Positions 42,501-45,500 of a DNA stretch of 64,000 nucleotides are shown here, piece by piece. The notes under the pieces were generated by a model that had not been told where the DNA came from, ran no database searches, and was given only the letters and a program-made list of their open reading frames with translations. Origin of the DNA: the human T2T-CHM13v2.0 reference genome, Homo sapiens; assembly GCF_009914755.1 (NCBI RefSeq), contig NC_060926.1; one strand, 5' to 3'. Within the stretch, counting starts at the first letter, position 1. The number at the start of each line of letters is the position of its first letter. Both the position numbers and the translations under genes were made by a program.

Positions 42501-45500
42501 TGCACTATGTGTGGGGCCCCGGGTGAGCGCACCAGCCCTCAGGCACTCTCTCTCAGCACTGATGGGGTGAGGGGTTTGTAGAAATACCTTAAATAAGACT
42601 GAGAAACAACAAAAGGGAGGCAATGTTTCTTCCTAGGCCTCCTTCAAAGGTGCTGCTTACCCCGAAGGAGAGAATCTGCTTGGGGTAGGCTAACCCAGCA
42701 CTGTCCAGTAGAACTTTCTGTGATGATGGAAATCTTCTATATCTGCACGTGTGGCTATTGAGTGCTTAAAATGGGGCACTAGTGAGATGAAGGAATTAAA
42801 CTTTGAATTTTAACTCATTTAAGCTAGAGTAGCCCCAGGCGGCTGGTGGCTACTGTATTGGGTAGTGTGGGTTTAACTGATCTCAAAAGCATGCTAGTCT
42901 CCCCTTTACAATGAGGAGGAGCAGCTTCCAGCGCAGAAAGGCAGGTCCTTGGAGCATATTCAGTGATGGCTCTGGTGGTATGAGGTGTGGCAAGCACAGT
43001 CTGGCCTGGAGTGGGAGGCTGCTGCGGCCACAGCAGGCACGCACACAGGTGTGGGAAGAGGGAGGGAGGGCAGCCTCCTCCCAGCTCATGTGCCCCTCGC
43101 TCGCCCTCTCTGTCCACCTGCAGAATGGACAGCCCATGGAGGCCCGGGAGAACGTGAAGTGCCCCCAAGGCTGGCACTTTAAGAAGGACTGGGTGGTGGA
43201 GCTGAACCACGCAGTGGACAGTAAGGGTCAGTCGTTTGGTCAGGGTTGGGATCGGGAGAGACCAGGGCCTCAAAATAACGGCAGCCAGCAGGGTGGGATC
43301 AGAGCAGCCAAGCCCTCCATGGTATACGCCTAAATTCCTGGGGCCCCCTGGCCTCCAGAGCTGGGTCTCCAGCGTTTCCTTACACATAGGCCCCAGTTTT
43401 GAGACAGCACAGGCCCTCAGTGTGTCCTGAAGCCTGGCCCAGAGCAAGGCGTGGCAGATGCTGGTGAACAGGAGGCTATCACGTGATGGCTGAATTCACC
43501 CACAGCAGCTCCAGGGCAGGAATGATGATGGGCTGCAAGTCTCAAGGTCCGGGCTCAAGATGCAAGCTTTGCTGCTTATGGGCTGTGTGGCCTTGTGCGA
43601 GTCACAGGACTTCTCTGAGTCTCACCTGCTTCATTTGTAAGTTGGGCAGCTGGGCCCAGGCCACTCAGGTGACACAGTGTAGCCACACTCTCCTTTCCAC
43701 ACCTCAGGGCCAGAGACCTGGATGTGAGGGAAGTAATGCCCCTCTAGGGCCTGTCTCCCGGGTTTGTCCAGGCCTCCCAACCTGCGGGCACCTGAGGACT
43801 CAGAGGCCATGGTCCACCCACCGCAGGCTGGGAGTATGGAGTGGGGATCCCACCGTCGGGCCTGCCCCAGGTCTGGAGCCCGGTGGAGAAGACCTACCAC
43901 TCGTGCCGCCGCCGGCGCTGGGCGCGTGTGCGCTTCAGGAACCATGGGGAGCTGAGCCACGAGCAGGAGACCCTCTCCTTCCTGCAGCTGGTGAGGGGTC
44001 GACGGGCGCCCTGGCTGGGACTGCGGGCAGGGCCGCCTTGGCTGCTGCAGGAACACAACCCTGCTCTCCTCCCCACCACAGGGCCTGGCCAAGGGCGAGG
44101 AGGAGGGCTGGGAGTATGACACCTTCGGCTCCAAGTTCCACCTCAACCCTCAGCCCCAGAGCCGGTTCCGCCGCCGCTGCTGGCGCCGCAGGCTGGCCCC
44201 CAACAAGGACAAGGGCATCGCGCCCATATTCCTCCTGGAGGGGTCCTTGGTAAAGCCTCACAGGCTGGGTGATGCCTGCCTGTAACCCCACCTCCCAGAG
44301 AAGCCAGGGCCTGGCCTGGCTGGGGCGCTGACTGCGGAGGAAGGGCCTCTGTTCCTCAGGCTTGCGAGGGTGGCAGTGTGAGGGAGGAGGGTGACTGGGC
44401 CTGGGCTAGAGGAAACAGGAGCAGCACCCAAGAGCCTCAGGGGAGACTGTCCTGGGTACAGGCTATGGATCTGAAATACCACGCTGGGAAGGAAGAGGAC
44501 AGCAAGACATGGCCATGGGGTCTGGACAGACAGTTCAGGGACCCCCAGAGGCAGGACACCCGGCCCCCCAACTTGCCCTTCATCTACTGCACCTTCAATA
44601 GTAAGCACTGACTTGGGAGTCTACTTGAATGGCCCCAGAGGCCAGTACCCGAGGGCGGGGGGGGGGGGACAGGGTGGGGGCAGTCAGAGGGAGCCGCTGG
44701 GGTCCTGGGGCAGGTGACAGGCATGGCTTCTCTTTCCCCAGAGCCCCACTACTACCAGCTCTTCTGCTACATCTACCAGGCCCGGAACCTGGTGTCCAAT
44801 CAGATCCTGACATTCCAAGGTAGGTGGCAGGCAGCCTTGTCCCCAGCTGAGGACAAGGCCTCAGGGAGGAGAGCAGGGTTGTGTTCCTGCAGCAGCCAAG
44901 GCAGCCCTGCTTGCAGTCCCAGCCAGGGCCCCTGCCTGTCGGCCCCTCACCAGCTGCAAGCCTTGTCCCTGGGTCCTGGTGTCAGCTGCTCAGCAGTGTA
45001 AAGACAGGGGCATGGATGAGGGTGACAAAGACGCAGACCCCTCTCCCAAGCAGCTCATGGTCCTGGTTTGGGGAAAAGACACAAAACAAAGACTACGAGG
45101 CAGGGCTGCTCTTGAGGCGTGACCCCAGTGCTGTGGAATTAGAAGTGGGAGCTGAGAGGGCTCCATCCCAGTGGTGGCCACTTAGCTGGGCATGGAAGAG
45201 GGAGGAGCTTGTCTGGCAGTTACTAGTGGGGCATGAGGGCAAGAGAGAGGGCAGTATGCTTGGGAACCATGTATCACTCGTGTTTGGACAGAGGCGGAGG
45301 GGCCTGTGGGGAGGGCCTGTCCTTGGTCCTGTGAGGACGCCCCAGTGCAAGTTTCAGGAGACAAGCCATGTGCTCCAGCCTGGTCCTTATTGCTGTTTGT
45401 AGGGAGTGGGGACAGTAGGTGGCAGGGCTCCAAGGGAGCTGTGTCCCTTGGGCTTCACCACCCACATCGAGAGGCCCATGTGACGCTCCCTGATGCCAGG

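What the first reader, a model, noticed from the sequence alone, without database searches (positions are those of the whole stretch)
43983..44969. Antisense copy of a whole small intron, including its 5' splice site, inserted three exons downstream
Seen: 44864-44958 is the reverse complement of 43983-44073. That covers the last 8 exonic nt, the CTG|gtgagg donor and nearly all of the 91-nt intron up to its polypyrimidine tract. There are 5 substitutions (4 give G-U pairs in sense RNA) and one 4-nt bulge. The copy lies 44 nt after the donor at 44820, is bracketed by an 11-bp direct repeat agccttgtccc (44833, 44959) and is preceded by a 9-bp fold-back (gccttgtcc/ggacaaggc). Inference: a built-in cis-antisense element that could mask the donor and branch region, or juxtapose splice sites around exons 44082-44249, 44462-44600 and 44742-44819. 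Possible outcomes are a 385-nt circRNA, frameshifting triple skipping, or intron retention in the DysF region.
Basis: partly seen in the sequence, partly recalled or inferred. Interest (0 to 1): 0.75.

Follow-up and report, generated by a model that had tools for sequence, protein, structure and literature searches.

The report
Inverted intron copy inside FER1L5
A 91-base piece of the human FER1L5 gene (an exon end, its splice donor and nearly a whole small intron) was copied backwards into an intron three exons downstream, so the RNA could fold over and hide that splice site, but nothing yet shows that this changes splicing.

Summary
Arm 43983-44073 and arm 44864-44958 are reverse complements: 86 Watson-Crick pairs, 4 G-U, 1 C.A mismatch and a 4-nt bulge. 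They are the only two copies in the 3.1-Gb assembly.

The copy is flanked by an exact 11-bp duplication and preceded by a 9-bp fold-back of that same target. This is the scar of a local DNA-level template switch. It is not a transposon and not an L1 retrocopy.

Predicted RNA pairing is overwhelming: -211 kcal/mol, and 90 of 91 pairs in a 2.5-kb fold. Donor accessibility falls from 0.42 to 0.00 and branch-region accessibility from 0.56 to 0.00 once arm 2 is transcribed.

Arm 1 ends 8 nt before the acceptor and holds every plausible branch adenine. The helix should therefore block splicing of the 91-nt intron, and back-splicing to that acceptor, rather than drive a circRNA. The masked intron has some of the strongest splice sites in the gene, and about 0.8-0.9 kb is transcribed before masking, so most transcripts probably escape.

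No RNA data, other species or population data could be reached, and no publication on it was found. I read it as a new member of a known kind and probably a tolerated scar. Moderate interest.

The parts
43983..44073 (+). Arm 1, the source: last 8 nt of exon 43827-43990, the donor CTG|GTGAGG, and 83 of 91 nt of intron 43991-44081, including all candidate branch adenines and most of the pyrimidine tract
   Evidence: The DYSF paralog has a phase-0 GTGAGC donor at the matching place, so this is the original.
43991..44081 (+). 91-nt intron whose signals would be masked. Its donor ranks 44 of 49 and its acceptor 47 of 50 among the gene's sites in the window
   Evidence: hub annotation; leave-one-out PWM built from the window's own sites
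44082..44819 (+). Loop of the predicted helix: three coding exons (44082-44249, 44462-44600, 44742-44819; 385 nt) and two short introns with weak inner sites (donor 44249 ranks 6 of 49, acceptor 44462 ranks 5 of 50)
44833..44843 (+). Left copy of the 11-bp flanking (target-site) duplication AGCCTTGTCCC
   Evidence: exactly 2 matches in the window
44844..44863 (+). 20-nt filler between the duplication and arm 2. It starts with the palindrome CAGCTG (also the last 6 nt of the source exon and of arm 2's body) and holds GGACAAGGC (44851-44859), the reverse complement of the duplication core 44834-44842, giving a 9-bp hairpin with an 8-nt loop
   Evidence: the hairpin is present in the MFE
44864..44958 (+). 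Arm 2: antisense copy of arm 1, 95 nt. It keeps 1 CpG against 5 in arm 1. On the minus strand it carries an intact copy of the donor
44930..44933 (+). 4-nt bulge (CCCT), the only indel between the arms
44959..44969 (+). Right copy of the 11-bp flanking duplication

Best explanation
This is the fixed scar of one local DNA rearrangement. During replication or break repair a growing strand left its template in the intron after exon 44742-44819. It made a short fold-back on the sequence just copied. It then copied about 91 nt of the opposite strand some 0.8 kb upstream (exon end, donor and nearly the whole 91-nt intron). Finally it returned 11 nt behind its point of departure, which duplicated AGCCTTGTCCC. 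This is a template-switch, or templated inverted, insertion of 115 nt plus the 11-bp duplication. The divergence between the arms suggests a primate-age event (inferred).

In the pre-mRNA the two arms can form a 91-bp helix that closes a 790-nt loop holding three exons. Where the helix forms before the 91-nt intron is committed, it hides that intron's donor, all candidate branch adenines and most of the pyrimidine tract. The expected product is then an unspliced, frameshifted transcript. Its premature stop lies in the next exon, so it should go to nonsense-mediated decay, and the helix should be an ADAR substrate. A circRNA or clean triple skipping is not expected.

The masked intron has very strong splice sites, and about 810-880 nt must be transcribed before masking. 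I therefore expect most transcripts to escape, and the element to be a tolerated, essentially neutral scar that at most mildly brakes FER1L5 output.

Shown: the anatomy, the uniqueness, the direction of copying and the folding thermodynamics. Inferred: the mutational mechanism, the age and every RNA-level consequence.
For: Anatomy:
- The arms, substitutions and bulge are as stated.
- There are only two copies in the whole assembly.
- The exact 11-mer is present only at the two flanks.
- The fold-back of the target next to the junction is seen in 16 of 20000 shuffles.
- There is no poly(A) and the intron is retained in the copy.
- The reverse-complement copy of nearby sequence, with return behind the departure point, fits the four-point template-switch model (PMC5453318, passages).

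Direction of copying:
- Arm 1 is in a coding exon. The DYSF paralog exon ends in phase 0 at a GTGAGC donor at the matching place.
- Three of the 5 substitutions are CpG to TpG/CpA, with the CpG kept in arm 1 (5 CpG against 1).

RNA pairing:
- The duplex is -211.1 kcal/mol, against -41.8 and -40.7 for the arms folded alone.
- MFE and centroid of 43960-44990 pair the arms.
- 90 of 91 pairs are in the MFE of 43827-46325, with mean pair probability 0.985.
- Unpaired probability of the donor goes from 0.42 to 0.00, and of the branch window from 0.56-0.57 to 0.00, as the nascent 3' end passes 44890-44958.

Consequences:
- Retention gives a stop 42 codons after the exon end.

Escape:
- Donor 43990 ranks 44 of 49 and acceptor 44082 ranks 47 of 50.
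- The selected RefSeq transcript splices all these exons, and none of the 12 other-transcript exons visible in the hub table lies in 43983-44969.

Genome-wide tendencies:
- Complementary regions are obstructive at splice sites, avoid branch points and are enriched in A-to-I sites (PMC8052449, passages).
Against: - No RNA evidence of any kind was available, so a strong effect, or none at all, is equally unobserved.
- Folding numbers are equilibrium predictions for naked RNA. They ignore snRNPs, hnRNPs, helicases and co-transcriptional kinetics.
- The 20-nt filler is only partly explained. Nine nt come from the fold-back. The rest has only 7-9-nt matches, which are expected by chance within 3 kb. 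One simple switch-and-return therefore does not account for everything.
- Microhomology at the switch points is at most 1-2 nt plus the shared CAGCTG.
- No outgroup was available to show an empty site, so insertion, fixation and age are inferred from one assembly.
- Such a stable helix over an active, strong donor that loops out three constitutive exons runs against the genome-wide avoidance reported in PMC8052449. That could mean it has a cost or a use I cannot see.
- Four exons of other transcripts are not shown in the hub table.
Confidence: 0.6

Rival explanations
1. circRNA driver. The two arms act like the inverted repeats that flank circularised exons. They bring donor 44819/44820 next to acceptor 44081/44082 and yield a 385-nt three-exon circle (or larger intron-containing circles), perhaps in testis.
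For: - The geometry is right in outline: one arm lies in the upstream intron and one in the downstream intron, inverted, 91 bp long. Repeats of 30-40 nt suffice in minigenes (PMC4201285).
- Stable complementary pairs circumscribe circRNAs genome-wide (PMC8052449).
- No competing inverted partner lies closer. The next pairs involve the Alu at 45531-45838, 3.1 and 10.5 kb away.
- Donor 44819 stays 44 nt clear of the helix.
Against: - Arm 1 ends 8 nt before the acceptor and holds every adenine 18-45 nt upstream of it. The branch-window accessibility is predicted to be 0.00.
- The ZKSCAN1 minimal upstream intron keeps the branch point and 3' splice site outside the repeat.
- The same paper reports that stronger hairpins and G-U wobbles can abolish circularisation. 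This helix is extremely stable and has 4 G-U pairs.
- The circle has no endless reading frame.
- Full-text searches for FER1L5 with circRNA (0 papers) and with circular (10 papers, 9 listed, none of the 9 listed titles about circular RNA) gave nothing. Supplementary circRNA tables were not searchable across papers.
Confidence: 0.12
2. Loop-out skipping switch. The helix brings exon 43827-43990 close to exon 46144-46325, so the three looped exons are skipped together. The result is a frameshifted, unproductive isoform that tunes FER1L5 dosage.
For: - Looped-out exons have lower inclusion genome-wide, more so for stable structures (PMC8052449).
- The outer sites are strong (donor 43990 ranks 44 of 49, acceptor 46144 ranks 49 of 50). 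The inner sites are weak (donor 44249 ranks 6 of 49, acceptor 44462 ranks 5 of 50).
- Skipping gives a stop after 8 codons.
Against: - The donor that must be used for this junction lies inside the helix, with predicted accessibility 0.00.
- No annotated exon or junction of this kind is visible in the hub table.
- There is no RNA evidence.
Confidence: 0.08
3. Selected self-antisense brake. The insertion was kept because it couples productive splicing of FER1L5 to elongation speed, dsRNA helicase activity or ADAR activity in spermatids. It would act in cis much as U1 snRNA pairs with a donor, but as a competitor.
For: - It is the only one of 99 annotated splice junctions in the window that is covered by an arm of any inverted pair within 5 kb.
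- Four of the 5 substitutions keep pairing as G-U.
- Such structures are normally avoided at active sites, so persistence may need an explanation.
- FER1L5 is testis-enriched and needed for the acrosome reaction in mice (PMC9876558, title and start of abstract only).
Against: - Four G-U against one mismatch is not significant (P = 0.19). It is what C-to-T decay on the sense strand gives: 3 of the 5 changes are at CpG sites.
- There is one species, one allele and no expression data.
- The anatomy is fully explained as a mutational accident.
Confidence: 0.1
4. Mobile-element or RNA-mediated origin. The copy would be a transposon end, a dispersed repeat, an L1-mediated retrocopy of a pre-mRNA fragment, or a reinserted intron lariat.
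For: The 11-bp flanking duplication is within the range I recall for L1 target-site duplications.
Against: - There are only two copies in 3.1 Gb.
- There is no poly(A) tail and no T-rich nick site at either flank.
- The copy contains unspliced intron plus 8 exonic nt, so it is neither a processed RNA nor a lariat.
- No Rfam family reaches its gathering score in 43700-45300. The best hit over arm 2 is mir-1257 at 21.1 bits against the 50 needed, E = 0.86.
Confidence: 0.03

Closest known systems
Template-switch mutations (four-point model of Loytynoja and Goldman 2017, PMC5453318; larger-scale FoSTeS/MMBIR events, recalled)
   Same: [quoted passage not shown] A one-step inverted repeat or hairpin is created. 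Returning behind the departure point leaves a direct repeat. A short fold-back sits at the junction.
   Different: - The event is larger and more distant (91-95 nt copied from about 0.8 kb away) than the short mutation clusters that paper deals with. I saw passages only, and no size limits.
- A 20-nt filler needs a second switch or later changes.
- No ancestral state was available to apply the model formally.
Intronic inverted repeats that promote exon circularisation (Alu pairs at ZKSCAN1, HIPK3 and EPHB4; mouse Sry; PMC4201285)
   Same: Complementary sequences lie in the introns on both sides of the exons. The length is well above the 30-40 nt minimum. The gene is testis-expressed, like Sry.
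   Different: - The repeat is not a transposon but a copy of the gene's own donor and intron.
- The upstream arm fills the 91-nt intron and covers the branch region and donor, instead of leaving the splice signals free.
- No circle is known.
Long-range pre-mRNA structures that regulate splicing (pairs of conserved complementary regions, PMC8052449; ATE1 and BRD2/BRD3 cases, listing only)
   Same: There is sub-kilobase-range (0.8 kb) intramolecular pairing. The predicted effects are splice-site obstruction, exon loop-out and ADAR editing.
   Different: - Those pairs are defined by conservation and tend to avoid active splice sites, branch points and exon loop-outs. This one is probably young, untested for conservation, and does all three.
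- FER1L5 was not found in the supplementary files held as text, but these need not include the full catalogues.
Local stem-loops that occlude a 5' splice site (MAPT exon 10, SMN2 exon 7; recalled, not looked up)
   Same: The donor is sequestered in a helix in competition with U1 snRNP.
   Different: Those stems are a few base pairs long and adjacent to the site. Here the helix is 91 bp, its partner lies about 0.9 kb downstream, and the branch site is also covered.

Membership tests
Template-switch / templated inverted insertion | The inserted fragment is the reverse complement of nearby sequence on the same molecule | tested here: met
   91 of 95 nt align in reverse complement to sequence 791 nt upstream
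Template-switch / templated inverted insertion | Unique local event, not a repeat family | tested here: met
   Only the two arms are found in the 3.1-Gb assembly
Template-switch / templated inverted insertion | Junction signatures: duplication from return behind the departure point, a fold-back, microhomology | tested here: inconclusive
   The exact 11-bp duplication and the 9-bp fold-back are present. Microhomology is limited to CAGCTG at both ends of the insert and 1-2 nt at the junctions. Eleven nt of the filler are unexplained.
Template-switch / templated inverted insertion | Ancestral empty site in an outgroup | not testable with these tools
   No other eukaryotic genome is held. The genome search states that the assembly has no relatives here.
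circRNA-promoting flanking inverted repeats | Complementary arms in the introns on both sides of the circularised exons, at least 30-40 nt | tested here: met
   Arm 1 lies in intron 43991-44081 and arm 2 in intron 44820-46143; the helix is 91 bp
circRNA-promoting flanking inverted repeats | Branch point and 3' splice site of the upstream intron, and the 5' splice site of the downstream intron, left free of the helix | tested here: not met
   The downstream donor is free (44 nt away). All adenines 18-45 nt upstream of acceptor 44081 lie in arm 1, and their predicted accessibility is 0.00.
circRNA-promoting flanking inverted repeats | An observed back-splice junction | not testable with these tools
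   No RNA-seq is held. Full-text searches were negative.
Regulatory long-range RNA structure (conserved complementary regions) | Conservation or compensatory substitutions across species | not testable with these tools
   Only one genome is available. Within it, 4 G-U against 1 mismatch is not significant.
Regulatory long-range RNA structure (conserved complementary regions) | Thermodynamically favoured pairing in context | tested here: met
   90 of 91 pairs are in the 2.5-kb MFE, with mean probability 0.985
L1-mediated retrocopy | Poly(A) tail, T-rich nick site, spliced template | tested here: not met
   None of the three is present at 44833-44969. The copy retains the intron. Only the flanking duplication fits.
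Transposon or dispersed repeat | Multiple copies in the genome | tested here: not met
   Two copies only. By contrast the neighbouring Alu gives 56 matches in the window alone.
Known RNA family (Rfam 15) | Score at or above the family's gathering threshold | tested here: not met
   There are 6 matches at E up to 1, and none of the 6 reaches its gathering score

The most novel reading that the evidence does not exclude
A primate-specific accident gave FER1L5 a built-in antisense against its own splice donor and branch site. Productive splicing of the DysF-coding region then depends on a race: commit the 91-nt intron within about 0.8-0.9 kb of transcription, or be locked into a 91-bp helix. FER1L5 output in spermatids would become sensitive to elongation rate, dsRNA helicases and ADAR. 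This would be a natural kinetic switch, or a step in the decay of the gene in our lineage.
Probability: 0.1. Interest if true: 0.65.

Novelty: new member of a known kind. Interest (0 to 1): 0.4.

Why it matters
If the helix forms in vivo, it is a clean natural test of how far co-transcriptional splice-site recognition can outrun RNA folding. A very strong donor and branch site face a near-perfect 91-bp competitor that appears a fixed 0.8-0.9 kb later. It would also show a template-switch mutation creating a splicing-relevant structure in one step, in a gene needed for the acrosome reaction and male fertility in mice (PMC9876558, title and start of abstract). If it does nothing, it is still a well-defined example of a local templated inverted insertion, with its junction scars intact, useful for dating and for mutation-mechanism catalogues.

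Tried and rejected
- **Chance:** rejected. The match has E = 1.3e-28 in the whole assembly.
- **Dispersed repeat or transposon ends:** rejected. There are 2 copies only.
- **Paralogous copy without the insert, to date the event:** none found. An 800-nt query found only itself and arm 1.
- **L1 retrocopy or lariat reinsertion:** rejected on anatomy.
- **Known RNA family or miRNA precursor:** nothing reaches a gathering score.
- **Source of the 20-nt filler:** only the 9-nt fold-back is convincing. A 9-nt direct match in exon 44082-44249 and several 7-8-nt matches are at chance level for 3 kb. A reading of the filler as a diverged continuation of the copy through the acceptor was considered by eye and left open.
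- **New splice sites made by arm 2 on the sense strand:** only weak acceptor-like sites (scores 4.1-5.4, against a median of 7.9 for real sites) and no nearby donor.
- **Selection from the G-U excess:** not significant.
- **Pfam on single exons:** 0 families for 3 of the 4 exons. The upstream exon gives one sub-threshold Pex24p hit (14 bits against the 26.8 needed). The DysF assignment rests on the solved-structure matches instead.
- **MYOF paralog locus L014:** read on the wrong strand and not used.
- **Literature:** FER1L5 with circRNA gave 0 papers. FER1L5 with circular gave 10 papers (9 listed; none of the 9 listed titles about circular RNA). FER1L5 with intron retention gave 4 papers: one was checked and is irrelevant, the other three are judged from title only. 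FER1L5 with RNA editing gave 0 papers.
- **Hypoxia-array paper:** it names FER1L5 among genes with a high splicing index, but gives no exon detail in the passages seen.
- **Catalogues of long-range human RNA structures:** FER1L5 is absent from the supplementary text held (1 file of 1,910 characters; 5 files). The BED catalogues themselves may not be among these files.
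Full report
**1. The observation**

The sequence, the repeat finder and a gapped alignment all show the same thing. Positions 43983-44073 (91 nt) and 44864-44958 (95 nt) are reverse complements. Pair by pair there are:
- 86 Watson-Crick pairs;
- 4 G-U pairs (43999/44942, 44004/44937, 44025/44912, 44026/44911);
- 1 C.A mismatch (44034/44903);
- one 4-nt bulge in arm 2 (44930-44933).

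Arm 1 holds the last 8 nt of coding exon 43827-43990, the donor CTG|GTGAGG, and 83 of the 91 nt of intron 43991-44081. It stops 8 nt before the acceptor. Arm 2 begins 44 nt into the 1324-nt intron that follows exon 44742-44819.

The junction details also hold:
- The 11-mer AGCCTTGTCCC occurs exactly twice in the 64-kb window, directly flanking the insert at 44833-44843 and 44959-44969 (0.12 expected, 1 of 100 shuffles with two matches).
- The 9-bp fold-back is 44834-44842 against 44851-44859.
- The three exons between the arms total 168 + 139 + 78 = 385 nt, which is 1 mod 3.

The arm in fact reaches further into the pyrimidine tract than 'up to' suggests.

**2. More than chance, and not a repeat family**

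- A search of the whole 3.1-Gb assembly with 44844-44958 finds only itself and arm 1, the latter at E = 1.3e-28.
- An 800-nt query around arm 2 gives the same two places and no paralogous copy.
- In a self-BLAST of the window, 22 inverted pairs of at least 40 nt and 85% identity lie within 5 kb of each other. Only 2 of these 22 are low-copy: this pair and a 419-nt pair at 33744-34162 / 35182-35600. The other 20 are multi-copy and Alu-like.
- At a looser threshold there are 197 inverted HSPs. Only 1 of the window's 99 annotated splice junctions lies inside an arm of any inverted pair, and that is donor 43990.
- Rfam has nothing here. Of 6 matches at E up to 1 in 43700-45300, none reaches its gathering score.

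**3. Which arm is the original**

Arm 1 sits in its native place in a coding exon. Translated, exon 43827-43990 matches the C-terminal part of the solved inner DysF domains of dysferlin (4cah, E = 1.4e-8) and myoferlin (2k2o, E = 3.2e-8). The next exon matches dysferlin and myoferlin just downstream. PMC9333456 (passages) names Fer1L5 among the three ferlins whose DysF regions it simulated.

In the same assembly the DYSF paralog exon (locus L013) ends in phase 0 at a GTGAGC donor at the matching place. The donor and intron therefore predate the paralog split, and arm 2 is the copy.

Three of the 5 substitutions are CpG in arm 1 against TpG or CpA in arm 2. Arm 1 keeps 5 CpGs and arm 2 keeps 1. 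This fits decay of the copy, though 3 of 3 on one side is not significant by itself.

**4. How it arose (inferred)**

Between the two 11-bp repeats lie 115 nt:
- a 20-nt filler (44844-44863) that is unique in the window;
- then arm 2.

The filler starts with the palindrome CAGCTG, which is also the last 6 nt of the source exon and so the end of arm 2's body. It then contains GGACAAGGC, the reverse complement of the core of the flanking repeat. That gives a 9-bp hairpin with an 8-nt loop right at the junction. Only 16 of 20000 shuffles of the filler produce such a match to the 30 nt upstream.

The scar has these features:
- no poly(A) and no T-rich nick site;
- the copy is unspliced;
- it carries 8 exonic nt, which excludes a processed retrocopy and a lariat;
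- it is a reverse-complement copy of sequence 791 nt away;
- there is a short fold-back at the point of departure;
- the return lies 11 nt behind that point.

This is what the four-point template-switch model describes (PMC5453318, passages). From recall, it also resembles the larger FoSTeS/MMBIR or polymerase-theta templated insertions. Replication and break repair cannot be told apart here. The remaining 11 nt of the filler have only chance-level matches and stay unexplained.

Age: 5 differences in 91 aligned nt is 5.5%, or 2 in about 81 non-CpG sites, about 2.5%. Set against recalled human-ape and human-monkey divergences, this points to an event somewhere between the great-ape and anthropoid ancestors. 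The error is very wide. Any gene conversion between the arms would make it look younger. No other eukaryotic genome is held, so this could not be checked.

**5. What the RNA could do**

The thermodynamics are one-sided:
- The duplex is -211.1 kcal/mol, against -41.8 and -40.7 for the arms folded alone.
- The MFE and centroid of 43960-44990 pair the arms end to end.
- In a 2499-nt fold from exon 43827 to exon 46325, 90 of the 91 pairs are in the MFE, and the mean pair probability is 0.985.

Folding nascent transcripts of growing length gives these mean unpaired probabilities:

| Nascent 3' end | Donor 43988-43996 | Branch window 44049-44058 |
|---|---|---|
| up to 44863 | 0.42-0.43 | 0.54-0.58 |
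| 44890 | 0.39 | 0.00 |
| 44958 | 0.00 | 0.00 |

All adenines 18-45 nt upstream of the acceptor (44049, 44052, 44053, 44055, 44057, 44058) lie in arm 1. These are equilibrium predictions for naked RNA.

**6. Which outcome is most likely**

The helix hides the donor, the branch region and most of the pyrimidine tract of the 91-nt intron. The direct prediction is failure to remove that intron.
- Retention reads through the intron and stops 42 codons after the exon end, in the next exon. By the usual rule (recalled) that marks the transcript for nonsense-mediated decay.
- The 385-nt circle needs the same branch site and acceptor that the helix buries. In the ZKSCAN1 minimal upstream intron, the 87 nt comprise 40 nt of repeat plus free branch point and 3' splice site. 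Stronger hairpins and G-U wobbles can abolish circularisation (PMC4201285, passages).
- Triple skipping gives a stop after 8 codons, but it needs the hidden donor.
- Genome-wide, complementary regions are depleted at active splice sites, avoid branch points, lower the inclusion of looped-out exons, circumscribe circRNAs and are rich in A-to-I sites (PMC8052449, passages). This helix is atypical on the first three counts.

Against a large effect:
- A rough PWM built from the window's own 49 donors and 50 acceptors (leave-one-out) ranks donor 43990 at 44 of 49 and acceptor 44082 at 47 of 50.
- About 810-880 nt are transcribed between completion of the intron and masking.
- The selected RefSeq transcript uses all these exons. 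None of the 12 other-transcript exons visible in the hub table falls in 43983-44969. Four more are not shown.

I therefore expect most transcripts to commit the intron before arm 2 appears. I read the element as a tolerated scar that at most gives a minor share of unproductive, possibly edited, transcripts.

**7. Other strand and surroundings**

- On the minus strand arm 2 carries an intact copy of the donor (score 10.2, last exonic base at 44951). No antisense gene is annotated here, so this is probably idle.
- On the sense strand arm 2 creates only weak acceptor-like sites.
- The only other inverted partners near these exons involve the sense Alu at 45531-45838. It pairs with antisense Alus 3.1 kb downstream and 10.5 kb upstream.

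**8. What is in print**

- Full-text searches found no paper linking FER1L5 with circRNA (0 papers) or RNA editing (0 papers).
- None of the 9 listed of 10 papers with 'circular' has a title about circular RNA (judged from titles).
- Of the 4 papers with 'intron retention', one was checked and is irrelevant. The other three are judged from title only.
- A hypoxia exon-array paper lists FER1L5 among genes with a high splicing index, without exon detail in the passages seen.
- FER1L5 does not occur in the supplementary text held for two catalogues of long-range human RNA structures. The full catalogues may not be among those files, and supplementary circRNA tables cannot be searched across papers. 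This is weak evidence of absence.

**9. Verdict**

The feature is real, unique and well explained as a local template-switch insertion. Its capacity to mask a strong donor and branch site is shown only by computation. The proposed circRNA is disfavoured by the geometry. Function is unproven and, in my estimate, unlikely to be large.

It is a new member of known kinds: templated inverted insertions, and intronic complementary pairs. It has one unusual property, covering an active splice site and branch region, that makes it worth a look in existing testis RNA-seq and primate alignments.

Noticed in passing
window 33736-34162 and 35182-35608: A second, much younger local inverted duplication lies in the same gene, in the long intron 25890-36963. 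The arms are 427 nt and 98% complementary, 1019 nt apart, with two Alus in the spacer. Each arm is part Alu and part unique sequence. Full-length copies exist only at these two places in the assembly; the other 40 of the 42 matches are partial Alu hits at 74-88% identity. FER1L5 thus carries two independent local inverted duplications within 11 kb.
   Followed up: partly
window 44657-44668: An uninterrupted run of 12 G lies in the 141-nt intron 44601-44741, inside the predicted loop. Such a homopolymer is likely to vary in length between people and is a possible G-quadruplex seed.
   Followed up: no
window 41323-41391 and 41522-41591: A 70-nt inverted pair at 83% identity, only 131 nt apart, lies in intron 40585-41849. 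Its nature was not examined.
   Followed up: no
window 45531-45838: A sense-oriented Alu sits in the same intron as arm 2. Its antisense Alu partners are at 48935-49221 (86.5%, 3.1 kb downstream) and 34422-35027 (82-85%, 10.5 kb upstream). These are conventional candidates for long-range pairing or circularisation of larger exon blocks.
   Followed up: partly
window 44249/44250 and 44461/44462: The splice sites inside the loop are among the weakest of the gene in the window by a rough PWM. Donor TTG|GTAAAG ranks 6 of 49, and the acceptor before 44462 ranks 5 of 50. The outer sites (43990, 44082, 46144) are among the strongest.
   Followed up: partly
window 44943-44951, minus strand: Arm 2 places an intact copy of the strong donor CTG|GTGAGG on the antisense strand (PWM score 10.2). 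It would matter only if antisense transcription crosses this intron.
   Followed up: no
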